Shown: positions 1,830-63,497 of the stretch, piece by piece
Position numbering within the stretch: position 1 is the first letter of the stretch
Layout: each line of letters opens with the position of its first letter
DNA from: Octopus sinensis
Lineage: Eukaryota
Length of the DNA: 64,000 nt
Assembly: GCF_006345805.1 (NCBI RefSeq)
Contig: NC_043018.1
Coordinates: forward strand, 2,232,001 to 2,296,000
Direction: 5' to 3'
Translations under genes and position numbers: made by a program
The notes under the pieces: generated by a model
Told to the model about the DNA's origin: nothing
Seen by the model: the letters and a program-made list of their open reading frames with translations, nothing else
The model's database searches: none

Positions 1830-2307
1830 CGAAAGAACTATGTTGAGCTAGAGACGAAGTATAGGGTGAAGAGAAAGGGAATCAATGTTGCGATTCAGGG
1901 ATTAAAACAGAGGTCGAAAGCTAAAGCACATAAAGTAAAGAGATATGGACAAAGAATTGAGCAATACAAATTAAACAGACTTTTCAAACTAAATCCGAAA
2001 CGAGTCTATCAGGAACTGGATGGGAAAGAAAGAGGTGAAAAAGACCGTGTCGGATGCTGAGGAAAGCAAAAGATTCTGGGCAAACATATGGTCTCAGAAG
2101 AAATAACACGAAACTGAAACAGAGTGGTTAAGGACATTCGAAGAGGAGAGTGGAGAGTGAAGAAAGCATTGTTGGGTATAACTAGCATCCTAAGGAGAGT
2201 ATTGTCTCTTTGAGCCACATGAGAAGACACTACTTGAAACTTTTAGTGATTTGTTATTGCCTGCTTTCAAGCACAACCGGTAATTAAGAACTCCCCGAGA
2301 GTCGTTC
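1830..2307 (+). mobile_element. Internally deleted R4/Dong-clade LINE remnant
   Basis: Translates to LKQRSKAKAHKVKRY..YKLNRLFKLNPKRVYQELDG..(fs)DAEESKRFWANIW (N-terminal region), joined directly to the C-terminal KKALLGITSILRRVLSL*, a short 3' UTR, then (TAC)n(TAA)n. Confidence 0.75.
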
Positions 2308-2602: not shown

Positions 2603-3279
2603 ATGAAAACTCAAAGCTTACTGGGTATGATGAAATGTGTCAGCTGTTCACAGCCAGCACAACATACTAAGGTGACACTTGTTTACTGGCCATACTTCAA
2701 GAACCCTACGAAGAAGGTATTCTACCTTCACACATGCACCAATCTTTTCAGCTATGTTGGTAGTTGAGTGTTGATAATTCCAAGTACCCTAATTACTATT
2801 GGCATCGCGTCTCCTCTCCTCATTGACCACAGCTTTCGTATTTCCCAATTCAAATTCTCATAGTTGCCTATTATTTTTCTTCTTCTTTCACATGGATCCT
2901 GTTGTCCGCTGGCTATGCTATGGCGATTATCATAAATCTTCTTTCTTTAATCTTCACCGCAAACAATGTTCGGTTTCCGATATCCGCAGCAGCAGTGGTA
3001 GTAATAGTTGTAGTTGTGACAGCAGCAGCAGTAGTAACAGCAACAGCAGTAGTAGCAGCAGTAGTAGTAGTGGTGGTGGTGGTGGTGGTGGTGGTAGTAG
3101 TAGATGTAGTAAGTGCGGCTTATGTAATGTTTTTTTGAAGTGGGATGGGGTCTCATCTGTCAAAAAGAGTATACATGTCTACTACTACTAGCAGCGAACA
3201 GTGACCTTGACCTTAAGAAAAATTAAGGAAGGGCCGACTTACTCTTTTCTGTATTATTTGTGATTGACCGGAGAAAATC

Positions 3280-3496: not shown

Positions 3497-3672
3497 TTTC
3501 TCTTTATCACAGGTTTACTTGGAGCTGCTGGAGTCTTACATGCGTAGCGATCTTTCTACCTGCAGCCTACAGTACCATGTTATCCATTTTTTTCACCGAC
3601 CTAATACTTTCCTAATTTTTCTGACCTTACCAAGGAGGCAAACCTTTTGCAACAGTTCTATGGAGCACTCCC
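3497..3672 (-). mobile_element. 3' end of R4/Dong LINE inside (ATT)n
   Basis: Minus strand reads ECSIELLQKVCLLGKVRKIRKVLGR* plus 3' UTR; (AAT)n on both sides; a related UTR fragment lies near 60600-60710. Confidence 0.7.
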
Positions 3673-5104: not shown

Positions 5105-5345
5105 TATATATATACGCTGAGTTTCCAGGCAGCAACTTCTACTCATTGGACATCTGACTGCCCGTGTGTATAATAGGTGGCAATGGTCAAGTTGCCGCGT
5201 AGTGAGACAGGAACCAAACCCACATAGTTCCAAATTGATATTCTTAACCACACACATATGCTTGCACCCGGAGTAATATCAACGGTAACTTTTGGTCAAT
5301 TCCTTGATTATTTTCTTTGAATTCCTTAATTTGTTTGATATCCGT

Positions 5346-5572
5346 ACTCTTTACTCTTTTACTCTTTTACTTGTTTCAGTCATTTGACTGCGGCCATGCT
5401 GGAGCACCGCCTTTAATCGAGCAACTCGACCCCGAGACTTATAGTTTTGTAAGCCCAGTACTTATTCTATCGGTCTGTTTTGCCGAACCGCTAAGTAACG
5501 GGGACATAAACACACCAGCATCGGTTGTCAAGCAATGCTAGGGGGACAAACACAGACACACAAACATACACA

Positions 5573-5633
<61 letters not shown>

Positions 5634-5779
5634 CATACATATATACGACGGGCTTCTTTTAGTTTCCGTCTACCAAATCCACTCACAAGGCTTTGGTCGG
5701 CCCGAGGCGATAGTAGTGGGACTGAACCCGGAACCATGTGGTTGGTAAACAAGCTACTTACCACACAGCCACTCCTGCG
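5346..5779 (-). mobile_element. SINE family A (small internal deletion)
   Basis: Near-identical to the copies at 40454 and 55007. Confidence 0.9.
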
Positions 5780-6283
5780 TACACAGACATCGTTTCGATA
5801 ATTATGACCAGTTTTATGTTAGGTATATCTATATTCTACTTCTTAACTGGTTTTATATCATAGAATTGGCACATAGCCTGTTGGTGAAAACAATCGGCTG
5901 GATTAAGTCGCAAAGAGCGTAAAATCATAAAATGTGAAGTTAATCGTCCCATTGAACTGATTCTATAACCGTCACTATAAGTTCGCATAGTTTCTTCAAA
6001 ATGTTGTTCTTGTAATAACTTGTTGCTATTCATTGCAACTCTGAAGATAAAATCAGGCCTGTAACTGTTCTTAGCCCAGATCTTTTGACCTATCGTTGGC
6101 TGTTAATCCGGTGTACTTACGTGCGTACGTGTGCACACACACACTTGCACAAACCCACACAAATACACACAAATACACACATACACACACACTCACGCAC
6201 ACACAGATATAGATATAAATATAATTGTTCGTATTGTGAATTACCCTCTCTTTCATTCCTTTATTAAAATACGGATGTTTGAA

Positions 6284-6500
6284 GGCGGCGAGCTTGCAGA
6301 AACGTGAGCGCGCCGGGCGCTATGCTTAGCGGTGATTCGTCTGTCTTTATGTTCCGAGTTCAAATTCCGCCGAGGTCGACTTTGCCTTTCATCCTTTCGA
6401 GCTCGATAAATTAAGTAAGAGTTGCGTACTGGGGTTTGTCTAGTCGACTGGCTCCTCCCTTAAAATTCCGGGCCTTGTGCCTAGTGTAGAAAAGAATATG
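6284..6500 (+). mobile_element. SINE family B with 12-bp TSD
   Basis: Head GGCGGCGAGC..GAGTTCAAATTCC, body GTCGACTTTGCCTTTCATCCTTTCG; TSD CGGATGTTTGAA at 6272-6283 and 6501-6512. Confidence 0.88.
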
Positions 6501-6597
6501 CGGATGTTTGAAGACAGCGAGCCGGCCGAAACGTTAGCACACCGGACGTACGGCTTAGCAGTATTTCGTCTCTCTTTACGTTCTGTATTCAAATACC

Positions 6598-6828
6598 TAT
6601 TTCTTTACTACCCACAAGGGGCTAAACACAGAGAGAACAAACAAGGACAGACAAAGGGATTAAATCGATTATATCGACCCCAGTGCGTAACTGGTACTTA
6701 TTTAATCGACCCCGAAAGGATGAAAGGCAAAGTCGACCTCGGCGGAATTTGAACTCAGAATGTAACGGCAGACGAAATACGGCTACGCATTTCGCCCGGC
6801 GTGCTAACGTCTCTGCCAGCTCGCCGCC
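6598..6828 (-). mobile_element. SINE family B inserted into an older family B copy (6513-6866)
   Basis: 17-bp TSD TTCTGTATTCAAATACC at 6581-6597 and 6829-6845. Confidence 0.92.
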
Positions 6829-7449
6829 TTCTGTATTCAAATACCGCCGAGGTCGACTTTGCCTTTAATCACAAACTCCTAAGAAATGTGAGATAATTAT
6901 TAATAGGTCTCAACTGGGATCCACTTAGCCCTTAGGGATCCGTGTAACATTTTGTTATTAAAAATGATGTGCAATAAATTCGTAACATTTCTATAATTCA
7001 CGGAACATTTTAGCAATTTTGTAAATACAATTCCTAAAAATATCAAAAGATTATGGGATCATTCAGAAACTTCAAACAGCTACTGGGTACTAGTAGCATA
7101 ATATAATAACCAAACGGGTCCACAGACAAAAAATAGTTGAGAACCAGTGAAATAGATTCAAATATGACGAGATTTTCACGGCTCGATTGAATGTAGTAAT
7201 AGATCTATTCGGTAAGAACTGATCAATGTATAAACAACAAAACCCAACAATAAAACAAACCAAAAACAAACAACAAAACAATGACAACGAAGTCAAGTCT
7301 AAATGGAAGAAACAATACCAATAACAACATCATCTTAAAGCCACTTAGAATTCCGTAGTTTTAAATCGCTAAAGTATTTGCATTGTCTATCGATTGTGTG
7401 TCACAGTTTTATACGTTCTAGAAAATCTTTTCTTTCCTAATCACCGTCT

Positions 7450-7730
7450 TATCTCTCTCTCCCCCTCCCTCCTCTCTCTCACTCCTCTCTCTCACTCCTC
7501 TCCCCCCCTCTCTCTCTCTCTCTGTTTCCCTATCTCGCTTGCTTCTCGAACTAAATTGTTTCTCTCTCCTTCTGTTTGTTGCTTTTTCTCCCACTCTAAC
7601 TCTCTCCCTCTCTCTCGTTCTCTCTGCTTTTCTCTCTATTTCTCTCTTCCACGCACTCTGCTTGTCTTGCTTTTCACTCCCTCTCTTCATTTATCATCCT
7701 CACTCGCTCTCATTCTCCCTCTTTCTCCCC

Positions 7731-8914: not shown

Positions 8915-9243
8915 GTGGCTTATCCAGAGGCATGACACTATTGAGACTTCTATACGCTGGAAGCTGTGCCTGAACTATGGAGTGACAAGAGAACAAAGAT
9001 GGTAGGCATGATGGTATATACCAGAAAAGATCTCATAAATTGACAAAGCAACCATATTCTGGGATGTGACAATACACACAGAAAGAGAGATGAGGGATAA
9101 TTGTTCACATATCGTTCTCACGGACCATCAAGAGGAGATGTCTTCTAATCGAGGTATTAGTCCCAGAAGATGGCATTGTATCTCTATAAGAAACGGAGAA
9201 ACCATAAAAATAGAAAGATCTGGAAAATGTGGAGCCTGAAAAA
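8915..9243 (+). mobile_element. Degenerate R4/Dong restriction-like endonuclease region
   Basis: IQRHDTIETSIRWKLCLNYG..IFWDVTIHTEREMRDNCSHIV..(fs)RRCLLIEVLVPED..ETEK, matching the RHD/WD/PD-(D/E)xK layout; contains stops and frameshifts. Confidence 0.7.
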
Positions 9244-41305: not shown

Positions 41306-41778
41306 GAGTGAGAGAGCAGTTCATGCCATCAAAGTGACACTGGCGTAAAATATACGAAGCCCAATATACCCATCATGACCACCCGTCTGATTAAGGTACA
41401 CCAGGCACATGCATCACAACCATATGTGCGCGACATGGTGATCTCATATCAAGATAAACAGCACATGACCTTGCAAGTGGGGCCCGGTTAGAAATTTCTT
41501 CAGATCGAGTAGCCCATCCCGCTCAAAAGGTCCCTGAATAAGGGTTGTTTAGGGACGTTGAACGAAACACCCATGTTTCCAGAGGTGAATTATTCAAACC
41601 CCAAAGAATCCCTCTCAACACATAGCTATGATGCTCCCCCACTACTTCTGCTCGTGATCAGAGATGCACATATCGTCAGCCACTAAGGGACATGCTCAAC
41701 TGGTTAAGGTCAAACAACTGACAAGCAAATCTGTGGTATTGAGCAGAATATTTGCTGTAGCCCATCTTTTATACCAAG

Positions 41779-41779
<1 letters not shown>
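41306..41779 (-). mobile_element. (AAT)n-embedded ~560-bp element, 5'-truncated copy
   Basis: Reverse complement of about 62203-62679; (ATT)n on both sides. Confidence 0.9.
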
Positions 41780-45870: not shown

Positions 45871-46199
45871 TATGTGAAGAATATTTTATAAGCATAGGAC
45901 AAATAAGAGTAAACGTGATATTGGAGTATAGAGTAGCCTCATTTGAGATGAAAGTATTCTGTGACGGAATATAAAAGGAAAATGTTGAAAACAATATAAC
46001 TGGAATTGCGGAACACTCTCAGATGAGGTAAATCCCTGATGACAATACTGCTGGAATGGCAGATTACTGAGGTCAAATTAGTCTACAACTTATAATGTAA
46101 TTCATGCGATTGGAAATCTTTTCGCTTGACAAGTTCGCAGTTTCGCGCTTACCAACTATGAACGATGCCTCAATGCGGCACAGTGAGGATCGAAGCTGT

Positions 46200-46745
46200 T
46201 AGTAATTTCCAGACGTAAAAAGAAAGAGCATTCAGAAATTTACTGGATCACAACTTGCTTGCCAACAACATACGAAGTACTCACTACAATCTGTAAAAGG
46301 TAGATAACTCATTGAGAGAGCAATGATATATTAGCAGAACAGATGAAATACCACCAGAAATACATGTTTGGCTGGGAAGAACAGCAGCTGCTAGTGAATA
46401 GATTATATCGAAATACAGAAACGAAAAAGAAAGCATTAGCTTGACTTCGAGAGATTACCTAAAATATATGATGTGTTTCTTGTATTTGTGATTCTGAAAA
46501 AGCTACACGTAAATAAAATAGCTTTAAACATCATTAAGCATAGTGACGCAGTAATGACAAAATGGAAAACAAGTATGACTCTGGAGGGAGATAAATACTT
46601 CAAATCAGTCCAATTCCCATTAGAAAAGGTTTCTGTCAATCATATAATCTTTTCCCTTCTTCTGCCCTTCTCCAAACCCATCGGGACATATCCCAACTAG
46701 AACCGACAACGATTATGGATTCAAGGATAAGTCATAAAACATCTC
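46200..46745 (+). mobile_element. Old R4/Dong reverse transcriptase fragment
   Basis: ITTCLPTTYEVLTTI..H*ESNDILAEQ..QQLLVN..DY..IIKHSDAVMTKWKTSMTL, with multiple frameshifts. Confidence 0.6.
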
Positions 46746-47984: not shown

Positions 47985-49484
47985 GTCCTTCAGTACTGAT
48001 ATCAGAATAGAGTTCCGACTGAGAAAGTGTGTTGTGTTAGTCTCGAAGAGAAGCAAAATCAAATGTATGGATGGGCTAAGGTTACCGTTGGGGGAGGTTA
48101 TGAAGTAGACAAAAGAGAAGGGATATAAGTACTTGGAGATTTTGCAAATGGATAAATTGATGGAGAAAGAAATGACAGAAAAATTTAAGATGGAATACTC
48201 GCGCAGACTGAGACTGATCCTAAAGTCAAAATTTAATGGACGGAATAAAATTGAAGCTATCAACACCTGGGCGGTTTTACTCCTTAGATATGGAGCAAGG
48301 ATGATCGCATGTCCAGCAGACGAACGAAACAGCTTAGACAGAAAGACAAGGAAGTTGCTGACTAGATATCGGACATTCCACCCAAAACGTGACACCGATA
48401 GACTGTATGTACCAAGAAAAAGAGGGGGAAGAGGACTTATTGGATGCGAACACAGCATTACAGAAGAAGAAAACAACATAGCATGGTATGTAAATGCGGC
48501 AGAACCGCTATTATTAGAAATAAGAAGGTCAGGGTTGTGTAGGAAGAAAGATTGCAAAGATAAAGCACTATTCAACAAATTGTGGATGAATGAAACTGAA
48601 AATAGTTGGGTAAAGAAAAGAATGCATGGTCAGTTCCATAGGGATGTTGAAGATAAGACAGACAGATAGAAAAAAATGGCTGTGGTTGACTAAAAGTAAT
48701 TTAAACCTGGAAACGAAGGCTCTAATCTGTGCTGCCCAAGAGCAAGTACTAAGAACAAACTACATAAAATACAGAATATTGGGATGTTGAAGATAAGACA
48801 GACAGATAAAAAAAAATGGCTGTGGATGACTAAAAGTAATTTAAAACTGGAAACGAAGGCTCTAATCTGTGCTGCCCAAGAGCAAGTACTAAGAACAAAC
48901 TACATAAAATACAGAATAGAAAACACAGCAGAAAGTGATAAGTTCAGAATCTGTGGACAAAATGGTGAAACCGTATGGCATATTACCAGCCAATGTACGT
49001 CATTAGCCCAGAAGGAATATAAGAGACGCCACGACAATATAGCCAGGCTTGACCATTGGTCACTTTGCAACAAGTATGGACTTGACAGAGCAAAATATTG
49101 GTACGGCCACAAAACTGAAGTCATCGTCGCAAATAGAAATGCAAAGATCATATGAGATTTTATGATTCAGTGCGACCATGAGATAGAGAATAGGAAACCG
49201 GACATAGTATTTATACGATAAGGAAAAGAGAAAAGTCGAGAGATATGACAGGTTAGCTTCGGAACTTAAGTAGTTGTGGTCGATGAAAAAAGTAGCAGTA
49301 GTACCAATAAGTGTCAGAGTACGTGGAACAAACAGAGGCCGCAATAAGGGTAGAGAACTTGCAGAAAAACAGCACTGCTTGGAACCGCCCAGATACTCAA
49401 AAATTAAGATGTGTTACCTTAGTTCACTGGTATTGAACAGCTGACACTGCAGTACATCTCCAAAGTTAGAATCTGTGCAAAGAC
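47985..49484 (+). mobile_element. 5'-truncated R4/Dong-clade LINE ending in (AAT)n
   Basis: YKYL, NKIEAINTWAV..RY, RLYVPRKRGGRGL, MHGQF, AAQEQ, degenerate CCHC (RICG..ETVWHITSQC), RHD and RKPDIV motifs; contains stops and frameshifts. Confidence 0.93.
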
Positions 49485-60527: not shown

Positions 60528-60724
60528 TACAAGATATAATACGATACAGCAGAAAACGATAAGGAGTGTATAAAGAGATAAATGACAAATAGTTTGATGA
60601 AATATTGGAAAAGAACAGCTACCATGTTACAGTAGGCTACAGGGAGCGAACGCACGACGCATGCAAGACTCTAGGAGTTACAACAAAACCTCAGATGAAA
60701 AGAATAAAACTAAAAATAACGATT

Positions 60725-60928
60725 TCAAATTTCGGCACAAGGCCAGCAAGTTCGAGGCGGCGATAAATCGATTATATCGACCCCAGTACACAATTGGTAC
60801 TCATTTTATCGACCCCGAAATGCTAAATGTTAAAAAATAAAGTTGACCTCTGCAGCATTTGAACACAGAACGTAAAGACGCACGAAATGGCACAAAACAT
60901 TTTGACCGGTGTGCTATTGATTCTGCCT
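60725..60928 (-). mobile_element. Degenerate SINE family B
   Basis: ATCGACCCCAGT..GGTACT..ATCGACCCCGAAA. Confidence 0.7.
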
Positions 60929-60957
60929 TAATAATAATAATAACAATAATAATAAAT

Positions 60958-61517
60958 GCCCTGATGCAGTACCAGGCAGAGGCTCTCATGGCTTCTGATC
61001 TTAACTGATTGAAAGTGTTATCATGTACATTGTTTTGTCTTGGTATAAAAGATGGGCTAACAGCAAATATTCTGCTCAATACCACATATTTGCTTGTTAG
61101 TTGTTTGACCTTAACCAGTTGAGCATGTCCCTTAGTGGCTGACGATATGTGCATCTCTGATCACGAGCAGACAGTAGTAGTGGGGGAGCACATCATAGCC
61201 ATGTGTGAGAGGGATTCTTTGGGGTTTGAATAATTCACCTCTGGAAACATGGGTGGTTCTTTCAACATCCTTAAACAACCCTTATTCAGGGACCGTTTGA
61301 GCGGAATGGGCTACTCAACCTGAAGAAAATTCTAACTGGGCCCCACCTGCAAGGTCATGTGCTGTTTATCTCGATATGAGATCACCATGTCGCGCACATA
61401 TGGTTGTGATGCATGTGCCTGGTGTGCCCTTATCAGACGGGTAGTCATGATGAGTATACTGGACTTCGTATATTTTACTCCAGTGTCACTTTGATGGCAT
61501 GAACTGCTCTCTCACTC
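60958..61517 (+). mobile_element. (AAT)n-embedded ~560-bp element, full copy
   Basis: GCCCTGATGCAGTACCAGG...CTGCTCTCTCACTC between AAT runs. Confidence 0.9.
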
Positions 61518-61570
<53 letters not shown>

Positions 61571-61584
61571 CAGCAACAATAAAA

Positions 61585-62037
61585 CTACAGCAAATATTCT
61601 GCTCAATACCACAGATTTGCTTGTCAGTTGTTTGACCTTAACCAGTTGAGCATCTCCCCTAGTGCCTGACGATATGTGCGTCTCTGATTACGAGTAGAAG
61701 TAGTGGGGGAGAATCATTAGCCGTGTGTTGAGAGGGATTCTTTGGGATTTGAATAATTCACCTCTGGAAACATTGGTATTTCGTTCAACATCCTTAAACA
61801 ACCCTTATTCAGGGACCTTAGGAGCGGGATGGGCTACTCGACAAGAATAAAATTCTAACCGGGCCCCACCTGCAAGGTCATGCGTTAATCTTGATAAGAG
61901 ATCACCATGTCGCGCACATATTGTTGTGATGCATGTGCCTAGTGTACCCTTATCAGTCGGGTAGTCATGATGGGTATACTGGGCTTTGTATATGTTACCC
62001 CAGTGTCACTTTGATGGCATGCACTGCTCTCTCACTC
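61585..62037 (+). mobile_element. (AAT)n-embedded element, 5'-truncated copy
   Basis: Lacks the first ~100 nt; same 3' end. Confidence 0.9.
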
Positions 62038-62084
<47 letters not shown>

Positions 62085-62121
62085 TAATAATAATAATAAT
62101 AATAATAATGATAATAATAAT

Positions 62122-62679
62122 GCCCTGATGCAGTACCAGGCAGTGGCTCTCATGGCTTCTGATCTTAACTGATTGGAAGTGTTATCATGTACATTGTTTT
62201 GTCTTGGTATAAAAGATGGGCTACAGCAAATATTCTGCTCAATACCACAGATTTGCTTGTCAGTTGTTTGACCTTAACCAGTTGAGCATGTCCCTTAGTG
62301 GCTGACGATATGTGCATCTCTGATCACGAGCAGAAGTAGTGGGGGAGCATCATAGCCATGTGTTGAGAGGGATTCTTTGGGGTTTGAATAATTCACCTCT
62401 GGAAACATGGGTAGGTAGTTCTTTCAACAACCTTAAACAACCCTTATTCAGGGACCTTTTGAGCAGGATGGTCTACTCAACCTGAAGAAAATTCTAACTG
62501 GGCCCCACCTGCAAGGTCATGTGCTGTTTATCTTGATATGAGATCACCATGTCGCGCACATATGGTTGTGATGCATGTGCCTAGTGTACCCTTATCAGAC
62601 GGGTAGTCATGATGGGTATATTGGGCTTCGTATATTTTACCCCAGTGTCACTTTGATGGCATGAACTGCTCTCTCACTC
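62122..62679 (+). mobile_element. (AAT)n-embedded ~560-bp element, full copy
   Basis: Same termini as 60958-61517. Confidence 0.9.
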
Positions 62680-62715
<36 letters not shown>

Positions 62716-63497
62716 CATAATAATAATAATAATAATAATATATAAGAAGAAGAAGAAACAGAAGAAGAAGAAGAGAAGAAGAAGAAGAAGAAGAAGAAGA
62801 AGAAGAAGAAGAGAAAGAAGAAGACAAGAAGAAAGAAAAGAAGAAGAAGAAGAAGAAGAAGAAGAAGAAGAAGAAGAAGAAGAAGAAGAAGAAGAAGAAG
62901 AAGAAGAAGAAGAAGAAAAATTGTTTCAAATTTTGAAATTTGTCACAAGTCCAGCAGCTTTAGTTGAAAGGTCAGTGCATTAAGCTGACCCCAGGTGTGT
63001 ATCGTTATTTTATTTTATCGGAACGGAGTGGTGGGTTACTGAGAGAAACCCGTTGGGATTTGAACTTAGAAGGTAAGTGGTCGCAACAAACAGCGCTCAA
63101 GAAATTTTTCCGTAACGATCCCGTTTCTCCACTAATGGATGAGATGCATGGAAAAATAGATCTTTCGATTATATCGACCCCAGTTGTTGTTTGGTAACAC
63201 TCGATCCTGAAAAAAATAATTGGTAAAGGTGAATTTGGATTGGAATAATGAATTGACGAATCAGAAGACGAAAAGGAAAATAGAAATATATAAAGAGTAT
63301 CAGAATGTACGGAAGAAGTAAAGTAAAAAGATGAAATTGGTTTTTAAACTGTAGGTTACAACTGAAAAAAGGTGTCTATTGTTAGCCTTTCGCTGTTTGA
63401 CATCTTCAATAGAAATGTTTGTTATCGGTGAATACTTACTAATGTCAGAATATGTGGAATTATTGCTAGTTAGAATATATATATATATATACAGAGC

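What the first reader, a model, noticed from the sequence alone, without database searches (positions are those of the whole stretch)
60958..62679. Non-coding ~560-bp element confined to (AAT)n, in a head-to-tail triple array
Seen: four copies (also 41306-41779), all within AAT runs in the same relative polarity, with identical 3' ends and two 5' truncations. I see no tRNA head, TIR or long ORF. Established: Dong (R4 clade) elements target TAA repeats, and such remnants ending in (AAT)n occur here (1830, 3497, 47985). Inference: a non-autonomous, microsatellite-targeted retroposon mobilised by a Dong-like protein, whose tail regenerates a target for the next insertion.
Basis: partly seen in the sequence, partly recalled or inferred. 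Interest (0 to 1): 0.7.

Follow-up and report, generated by a model that had tools for sequence, protein, structure and literature searches.

The report
Microsatellite-seeking hitchhiker of Dong retrotransposons
This is a 555-base non-coding jumping element with roughly 50,000 copies in an animal genome (likely an octopus); it sits almost only in AAT repeats, facing one way, and likely borrows the enzyme of Dong retrotransposons by copying the shape, not the sequence, of their RNA tail.

Summary
Observation confirmed: four 91-97% identical copies, all in (AAT)n, same polarity, same 3' end, two 5'-truncated. The family has about 50,000 copies genome-wide. 54 of 59 copies have AAT just upstream (background under 1%). 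Truncation is 5'-biased (11 vs 1 of 30), and 15% of 5' junctions carry short tandem duplications, as in one Dong family. These are marks of target-primed reverse transcription. About ten Dong/R4 families, two with young near-complete ORFs, use the same target and polarity. None shares primary sequence with the element. Their 3' UTRs share a covarying bulged hairpin (YTA bulge, C-NGGNN-G loop), and the element has the same architecture about 80 nt from its tail. A Dong-only model supports this only modestly (E=0.04 within the element; not significant genome-wide). No tRNA, U1 or HDV-ribozyme head was found, so its promoter is unknown. The triple array most likely grew by separate insertions (different subfamilies and ages), though a tree test did not reject one clade. 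A 170-nt internal piece also lies inside a Chapaev3-like MITE. Verdict: a new variant of the non-autonomous LINE partner; closest are Entamoeba SINEs and R2 SIDEs. Repbase and Dfam could not be checked.

The parts
60956..61517 (+). Copy 1, full length, 97.8% to family consensus, young subfamily
61586..62037 (+). Copy 2, 5'-truncated at position ~101, 93.1% to consensus, older subfamily (oldest member of the array)
62120..62679 (+). Copy 3, full length, 99.1% to consensus; nearest relatives (99.3%) lie on other contigs
41306..41779 (-). Copy 4, 5'-truncated at position 82, inside an (ATT)n run, same polarity relative to the repeat
60930..60955 (+). (AAT)n target run upstream of the array
61518..61585 (+). 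(AAT)n/(AAC)n spacer between copies 1 and 2
62038..62119 (+). (AAT)n spacer between copies 2 and 3 (tail of copy 2; likely target of copy 3)
62680..62740 (+). (AAT)n tail / downstream target of copy 3
62581..62625 (+). 3' bulged hairpin of copy 3 (stem, TTA bulge, 6-bp stem, C-GGGTA-G loop), same architecture as Dong 3' UTR hairpins; predicted recognition signal
61419..61463 (+). Same hairpin in copy 1
62222..62391 (+). Element positions 102-271: 170-nt segment 96% identical to the core of a ~490-bp Chapaev3-like MITE family
47989..49484 (+). Decayed Dong/R4 3' half (RT C-terminal part, CCHC, endonuclease, 3' UTR hairpin at 49408-49451), followed by an (AAT)n tail
2603..2800 (-). 3' end of a second Dong family, hairpin at 2633-2681, followed by (AAT)n
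3499..3672 (-). 3' UTR of a third Dong family between two (ATT)n runs
1857..2307 (+). Dong fragment with a 3' UTR like that of a further family (L277), ending in a (TAC)n/(TAA)n run

Best explanation
The element is a 555-base non-coding, high-copy repeat that lies in (TAA)n microsatellites in one orientation and is likely copied there as RNA by the reverse transcriptase/endonuclease of Dong (R4-clade) retrotransposons, which would recognise a bulged 3' hairpin it shares with their 3' UTRs in shape only. Steps: (1) a copy is transcribed from a fixed 5' start by an unidentified, probably Pol II, promoter (inferred); (2) a Dong protein binds the 3' hairpin (inferred); (3) it nicks an (ATT)n strand and primes reverse transcription at the fixed 3' end (inferred from the junctions); (4) early stops give 5' truncations, and repeated second-strand priming gives short 5' duplications (patterns shown, cause inferred); (5) each insertion leaves AAT on both sides, so later element or Dong copies land in the same run and build same-direction stacks (pattern shown). 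The window's triple array is most likely three separate insertions, with copy 2 first.
For: Copy number: 5229-7686 exact 23-mer hits, reversed controls 0; 11 copies in 0.6 Mb of evenly spaced sequence, about 50,000 (25,000-89,000). Target: 54 of 59 distinct copies have AAT within 35 nt upstream (52 of 59 with a run of 9 nt or more) vs 0.9% background. Asymmetry: 11 5'-truncated vs 1 3'-truncated of 30 mid-anchored copies, p=0.006. 5' duplications: element 13 of 85 junctions, Dong family 1 7 of 34, other sequence 5 of 217 (p<0.001). Neighbours: 13 of 54 sit in a Dong 3' tail and 3 in the element's own tail, all co-oriented; no opposite-strand element pair within 400 nt. Drivers exist: two Dong families at 97-99% protein identity with ORFs up to 1235 and 1132 codons, related to R2 proteins (E=1.5e-27). 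Hairpin: covaries across 16 Dong rows (score 0.61 vs 0.23 shuffled, 0 of 500; slid 0.18 or less). The best hit of the Dong-only model inside the element is the 3' hairpin in full register (E=0.04). A descriptor hit only Dong or the element: 113 hits in 1.26 Mb and 3 hits in an independent 1.2 Mb. Both subfamily variants in the stem (467 C/T, 497 T/C) pair with G either way.
Against: No primary-sequence match to any of ~10 Dong 3' ends or to the two 5' UTRs recovered, so no specific partner family is identified. The hairpin scores only 9.6-10.8 bits: E=1.9 and 4.6 window-wide, within the score range of four unrelated hits (9.6-12.8 bits); copies 2 and 4 were not listed; and no element copy was listed in the 0.6-Mb sample. 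The descriptor was written with the element in view and hits only 4 of 9 Dong consensus ends. Dong family 2 shows 0 of 17 and family 3 1 of 21 5' duplications, and 4 of family 1's 7 are at its own terminal repeats. AU test p=0.21 for copies 1-3 as one clade. One of 22 adjacent pairs elsewhere is identical and two more look like sisters, so local duplication does occur. No promoter was found.
Confidence: 0.8

Rival explanations
1. Origin variant (compatible with Dong dependence): the element is a SIDE-like internal-deletion derivative of a Dong family that is extinct, rare or was not sampled, so both ends are that family's UTRs.
For: Size, fixed 5' end and non-coding body resemble R2Dwi_SIDE (529 bp, PMC3414825 section 5). 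Only 2 of ~10 Dong 5' UTRs were recovered, and the hairpin model turned up a further family, so sampling is incomplete.
Against: None of the 30 copies anchored on the 3' 23-mer runs into an ORF. No blastx similarity to a Dong protein. No ribozyme, which SIDEs carry.
Confidence: 0.25
2. The element is moved by an APE-type LINE (RTE or Tx1) that adds or prefers AAT/ATT repeats.
For: Octopus RTE 3' UTRs are largely microsatellite (PMC9115989 passage). Earlier AI notes report a Tx1-like family in the same repeats (untested here).
Against: A tail alone does not explain long AAT runs upstream of 5' junctions. Every coding 3' end found before AAT runs had the R4-type C-terminus. The notes put Tx1 in the opposite orientation. 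The hairpin matches Dong.
Confidence: 0.08
3. The triple array arose by local tandem duplication or slippage of one insertion.
For: AU test does not reject one clade (p=0.21). An identical tandem pair (L147) and probable sister pairs (L116/L117, L028) exist elsewhere. Copy 2's nearest row is copy 3, tied at 92.9% with four dispersed copies.
Against: Copy 3 is 99.3% to copies on other contigs but 96.9% and 92.8% to copies 1 and 2. Copy 2 carries old-subfamily states (T294/G298/G355/C540) that copies 1 and 3 lack. The only differences shared within the array are common polymorphisms (13% or more). The 5' ends differ.
Confidence: 0.1
4. A microsatellite-targeting DNA transposon (Micron-type MITE or MINE-type Helitron).
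For: Such elements target microsatellites (PMC3812793 passage). The element shares 170 nt with a MITE.
Against: No terminal inverted repeats; one-sided truncation, strict polarity and 5' duplications. The MITE holds only an internal piece and has the derived state at position 251.
Confidence: 0.03

Closest known systems
Entamoeba EhSINE1 / EdSINE1 / R4-N1_ED (PMC2996970 passages; PMC3747384 Table 1, which names R4-1_ED as partner of the E. dispar SINEs; R4 placement of EhLINE1 is recalled)
   Same: 500-600 bp, non-coding, head of unknown origin, not an RNA-gene-derived SINE, partner in the R4 clade.
   Different: They share ~70 nt of 3' sequence with their LINE; here only a hairpin shape is shared. 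EhSINEs lack targeted insertion (PMC1635306, abstract start in search listing); this element is (TAA)n-specific, in an animal, with ~50,000 copies.
R2 SIDEs of Drosophila (PMC3414825, abstract and section 5)
   Same: About 530 bp, non-autonomous, site-specific through a restriction-like-endonuclease LINE, 3' end recognised as a conserved RNA structure.
   Different: SIDEs are 64-81% identical to R2 UTRs and carry an HDV-like ribozyme; neither was found here. Their target is 28S rDNA, not a dispersed microsatellite.
Dong elements, R4 clade (B. mori Dong, DongAg, DongBg, ostracod Dong; octopus 'Dong-R4') (passages of PMC3812793, PMC7998251, PMC3774820, PMC13282606, PMC8967140, PMC9115989)
   Same: Same (TAA)n target, polarity and 3' junction phase; 5' truncation; shared 3' hairpin architecture.
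   Different: The element has no ORF. B. mori Dong has a 5' ribozyme; none was detected in the element or in the two Dong 5' ends examined here.
Stringent-type SINE/LINE pairs with a 3' stem-loop (PMC3747384 passage; PMC5786205 passages)
   Same: Short non-autonomous RNA with a 3' stem-loop presumed to be bound by the partner RT.
   Different: No tRNA/5S/7SL/U1 head and three internal T4 runs. Table 1 of PMC3747384 lists no animal SINE with an R4 partner; PMC5786205 lists only RTE, Ingi, Vingi and R2 as producing bipartite non-autonomous LINEs.

Membership tests
Non-autonomous non-LTR retroposon (TPRT) | Fixed 3' end with simple-repeat tail, variable 5' truncation | tested here: met
   11 vs 1 of 30
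Non-autonomous non-LTR retroposon (TPRT) | Dispersed, high copy number, no coding capacity | tested here: met
Non-autonomous non-LTR retroposon (TPRT) | Target site duplication | tested here: inconclusive
   Cannot be read inside a perfect repeat
Dong/R4-dependent element | Insertion in (TAA)n with Dong polarity | tested here: met
   54 of 59; 7 of 8; co-oriented with Dong
Dong/R4-dependent element | 3' sequence homology to a partner LINE | tested here: not met
   (about 10 families; sampling incomplete)
Dong/R4-dependent element | 3' RNA structure shared with partner | tested here: inconclusive
   Architecture matches; Dong-only model E=0.04 within the element, not significant at window or genome scale
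Dong/R4-dependent element | Mobilisation in trans by Dong protein | not testable with these tools
   Needs a TPRT or cell assay
Classical SINE (SINE1/2/3/SINEU) | RNA-gene-derived head with A and B boxes | tested here: not met
   ARAGORN 0; Rfam none; no B box, three T4 runs; U1 of this genome no better than shuffles, 394 of 500
SIDE (R2-type bipartite) | 5' HDV-like ribozyme | tested here: not met
   Strict descriptor 0 hits on the sense strand; relaxed hits lack the conserved L3 loop; no positive control was available, so the descriptor's sensitivity is unproven
SIDE (R2-type bipartite) | 5' end homologous to the partner's 5' UTR | tested here: inconclusive
   No match to the 2 families recovered; the other ~8 5' ends were not obtained
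MITE / DNA transposon | Terminal inverted repeats, symmetric ends | tested here: not met

The most novel reading that the evidence does not exclude
A headless, ribozyme-less animal retroposon that parasitises a whole clade of microsatellite-specific Dong retrotransposons by mimicking their covarying 3' UTR hairpin without sharing sequence. It has stayed active over a long period (copies 0-22% diverged) and builds stacked arrays because each insertion renews the target.
Probability: 0.45. Interest if true: 0.68.

Novelty: new variant of a known kind. Interest (0 to 1): 0.52.

Why it matters
Non-autonomous partners of restriction-like-endonuclease LINEs are rare in the papers read (R2 SIDEs, Entamoeba SINEs); none of them described a microsatellite-specific one in an animal. 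The comparison also yields a compact, covarying candidate for the RNA signal that Dong/R4 proteins bind, shared by about ten divergent families. That makes template recognition in this clade directly testable and supplies a natural 555-nt cargo for site-specific insertion work of the R2 kind. At about 50,000 copies (under 1% of the genome) it probably accounts for part of the unclassified SINE fraction and of the AAT-repeat landscape in these genomes.

Tried and rejected
U1-derived head (a resemblance recalled from memory): tested against this genome's U1 gene, no better than shuffles. tRNA-SINE origin: a 10-nt match of the first 60 nt to a 75-nt tRNA-like SINE (15 of 500 shuffles; whole element 19 of 500) is not convincing after several tries. 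HDV ribozyme: none in the element or in two Dong 5' ends. Hammerhead: two CTGANGA cores but, by eye, no stem II/GAAA partner. Coding remnant: blastx E 0.9 or worse. Rfam hits (CrcZ etc.) reflect AAT composition. Primary-sequence partner search in the 3' ends of ~10 Dong families and the 5' ends of 2: negative; the 8 older-family stretches gave no 5' end. Expression: no RNA holder listed; the contigs laid say nothing on transcription. The MITE as donor of the element's middle is less likely, on one diagnostic site only. Look-ups of earlier findings by sequence and by words were blank. Paper searches listed no description of this element. Repbase, Dfam and most subscription papers were not searchable, and supplements (e.g. 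the repeat libraries of PMC13282606 and PMC9115989) were not read and may hold it under another name.

Full report
OBSERVATION. The window holds four copies of one element: 60956-61517, 61586-62037 (from position ~101), 62120-62679, and 41306-41779 on the minus strand (from position 82). They are 91.2-96.9% identical. All end at the same base before (AAT)n and have AAT upstream. No tRNA gene, Rfam family or ORF above 68 codons is present. The host genome G000 is 2.72 Gb.

ABUNDANCE AND AGE. Exact 23-mers from the 3' end, middle and 5' end occur 5229, 7686 and 6289 times; reversed controls occur 0 times. Sixty evenly spaced 10-kb stretches hold 11 copies in 599,900 bases, about 50,000 genome-wide (95% range 25,000-89,000). 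Among 108 long copies identity to a 555-nt consensus runs from 78% to 99.8%, in a star-like tree; this set is biased to young copies by the way it was fetched.

TARGET. The 90 pattern-anchored loci from the start of contig C1 reduce to 59 distinct copies. Of these 54 have two or more AAT units within 35 nt upstream (52 with a run of 9 nt or more) and 5 do not. The chance that a random position follows three or more AAT units that closely is 0.9%. In the unbiased sample 7 of the 8 copies with a visible 5' flank have AAT upstream and one sits in (AT)n. Of 28 full-length 5' junctions, 20 read (TAA)n|ATGCCC.

RETROPOSITION MARKS. Of 30 copies anchored mid-element (about 270 nt to each end), 11 are 5'-truncated and 1 is 3'-truncated (p=0.006). 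Short tandem duplications at the 5' junction occur in 13 of 85 element junctions, 7 of 34 for Dong family 1 (4 at its own terminal repeats), 0 of 17 for family 2, 1 of 21 for family 3 and 5 of 217 others. Element vs others gives p=8e-5; element vs family 2 gives p=0.12.

CANDIDATE DRIVERS. Clustering sequence upstream of AAT runs gave about ten LINE families, all ending in the R4-type 'LLGTA.I.R..L' C-terminus (motif label recalled) and (AAT)n. Two are young: 150 of 150 scored hits at 97-100% protein identity, with open frames up to 1235 and 1132 codons. One has Pfam RVT_1, and a full ORF matches R2 structures at E=1.5e-27. Dong targets TAA repeats (PMC3812793, PMC7998251, passages), and Dong-R4 is listed as recently active in O. 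vulgaris (PMC13282606, first third of the text and passages). No primary-sequence match links the element to any of these 3' ends or to the two 5' UTRs recovered.

SHARED HAIRPIN. Dong 3' UTRs carry, about 45-65 nt before the tail, a stem, a 3-nt YTA-like bulge, a 6-bp stem, a C-NGGNN-G loop and a 1-nt bulge. I picked 19 candidates by eye and dropped 3 (two mis-registered, one with other spacing). The remaining 16 aligned without gaps: 79% of cells pair, 11 of 14 pairs change on both sides, covariation 0.61 vs 0.23 shuffled (0 of 500) and 0.18 or less slid. The selection leans towards the structure. The element has the same architecture about 80 nt from its tail, with one extra bulged A. A model built from Dong rows only ranks this hairpin first within the element, in full register, at E=0.04. 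Against this: window-wide the element hairpins score E=1.9 and 4.6, among four unrelated hits of similar or higher score; copies 2 and 4 are not listed; and none is listed in the 0.6-Mb sample, where the model did find a Dong family not used to build it (E=0.08). A descriptor written with the element in view hits 4 of 9 Dong consensus ends. It gives 113 hits in 1.26 Mb of overlapping loci, all Dong or element, 1 of 3000 shuffles, and 3 hits (1 Dong, 2 element) in the independent 1.2 Mb. I rate the resemblance probable, not proven.

5' END. There is no B box, and three T4 runs argue against Pol III read-through. No HDV-like fold was found by strict or relaxed descriptor (no positive control), although B. 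mori Dong has one (PMC3774820, passages). The two Dong 5' ends here also show none: one family starts with 1-4 tandem ~22-nt units, the other has a ~1.7-kb UTR seen complete in one locus. U1 and tRNA-SINE origins are not supported. The fixed start suggests an internal promoter, probably Pol II (inference).

THE ARRAY. Copies 1, 2 and 3 are 97.8, 93.1 and 99.1% to consensus. Copy 3's nearest rows (99.3%) are on other contigs, and the four window copies need 4 changes on the tree. Copy 2 has old-subfamily states that copies 1 and 3 lack, and no rare variant is shared within the array. The AU test does not reject one clade (p=0.21); the tree has little resolution. Of 22 adjacent pairs (2 from this window) identities span 78-100%, one pair is identical, two more look like sisters, and no opposite-strand pair was found. 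Upstream neighbours of the 54 copies: 13 Dong 3' ends and 3 element 3' ends, all co-oriented, after discarding short low-complexity hits. So stacks grow mainly by re-targeting, sometimes by duplication. Here copy 2 likely came first, copy 3 entered its tail and copy 1 the upstream run.

MITE LINK. Recurrent loose ends in four laid runs led to a ~490-bp family with 11-bp terminal inverted repeats and TWA flanks, typical of Chapaev3 (PMC4079192, passages). It has 289 and 462 exact pattern hits, and its copies are about 90% to their consensus. Its core is 164 of 170 identical to element positions 102-271. All 50 fetched loci (partly overlapping) carry the piece from about position 102 and none runs past 271. 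Old element copies have A at 251 (12 of 13); young copies and the MITE consensus have G. This suggests the MITE captured the piece from the retroposon, on one site only.

COMPARISON AND NOVELTY. It works like a stringent non-autonomous LINE partner. It fails the classical SINE head test and the SIDE ribozyme test, and it lacks the 3' sequence overlap of Entamoeba SINEs (PMC2996970, passages; PMC3747384, passages and Table 1; PMC3414825, abstract and section 5; PMC5786205 and PMC4640811, passages). Searches listed no paper describing it; octopus repeat surveys (PMC8967140, PMC9115989, passages) mention Dong-R4 only as a LINE class. Repbase, Dfam and supplements were not seen, so it may be catalogued unnamed. 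An earlier unchecked AI note (e1-10333100) appears to describe the same element and also found no sequence sharing; it is not independent support. The hairpin and MITE results are added here.

VERDICT. New variant of a known kind. Dong-dependent TPRT 0.8; structural mimicry without descent about 0.45; interest 0.52.

Noticed in passing
L188-L237 (e.g. L227:1327-1796; L291:4659-5148): A ~490-bp Chapaev3-like MITE (11-bp TIRs, ~95-bp subterminal inverted arms, TWA flanks) whose core is a 170-nt piece of the retroposon; direction of capture probably retroposon to MITE.
   Followed up: partly
Dong 3' UTRs, alignment A1; window 49408-49451 (+), 2633-2681 (-): About ten divergent Dong families share one covarying bulged hairpin in the 3' UTR; candidate RNA recognition signal of the clade.
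   Followed up: yes
L168, L170, L171, L175, L179 (5' ends): Dong family 1 begins with 1-4 tandem ~22-nt units and a short AT-rich 5' UTR, with no HDV-like fold detected.
   Followed up: partly
L156:202-1880; L028:3225-3440: Dong family 2 has a ~1.7-kb 5' UTR with internal repeats and a GC-rich structured start; not matched by Rfam or my HDV descriptor.
   Followed up: partly
window ~60720-60929 (-); cluster FAM4: An abundant SINE with tRNA-like boxes (by eye) abuts the array in the opposite polarity and is often found at the same AAT/ATT runs (10 of 59 copies have it as a neighbour on the + reading); a different driver is likely.
   Followed up: no
L012, L013, L014, L058 (FAM5): A ~75-nt tRNA-like SINE ending in (AAT)n, often as head-to-head palindromic pairs; possibly a second Dong passenger. 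It shares a 10-nt word with the element's 5' end.
   Followed up: partly
L040:494-860; L007; L023; 5 hits in the 0.6-Mb sample: Another ~350-bp non-coding repeat seen inside AAT/AAC runs, ending in a GC-rich palindromic hairpin; Helitron/Helentron-like by eye.
   Followed up: no
L287 (G000:C17:20000001-20010000): A multi-kilobase stack of many Dong fragments and two element copies separated by AAT runs; a good example of a landing-pad array.
   Followed up: partly
window 62154-62182 and 62263-62291: Two similar internal hairpins with CUUAAC loops in the element's 5' third, perhaps an old internal duplication.
   Followed up: no
L146/L147 (G000:C1:15.27 Mb): Two identical full-length copies in tandem, 99.8% to consensus: recent duplication, dimer insertion or assembly artefact.
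   Followed up: no
window 48641-48918; 8922-9090; 46190-46673: A 140-bp internal tandem duplication in the Dong remnant, and two more Dong-like fragments by blastx.
   Followed up: no
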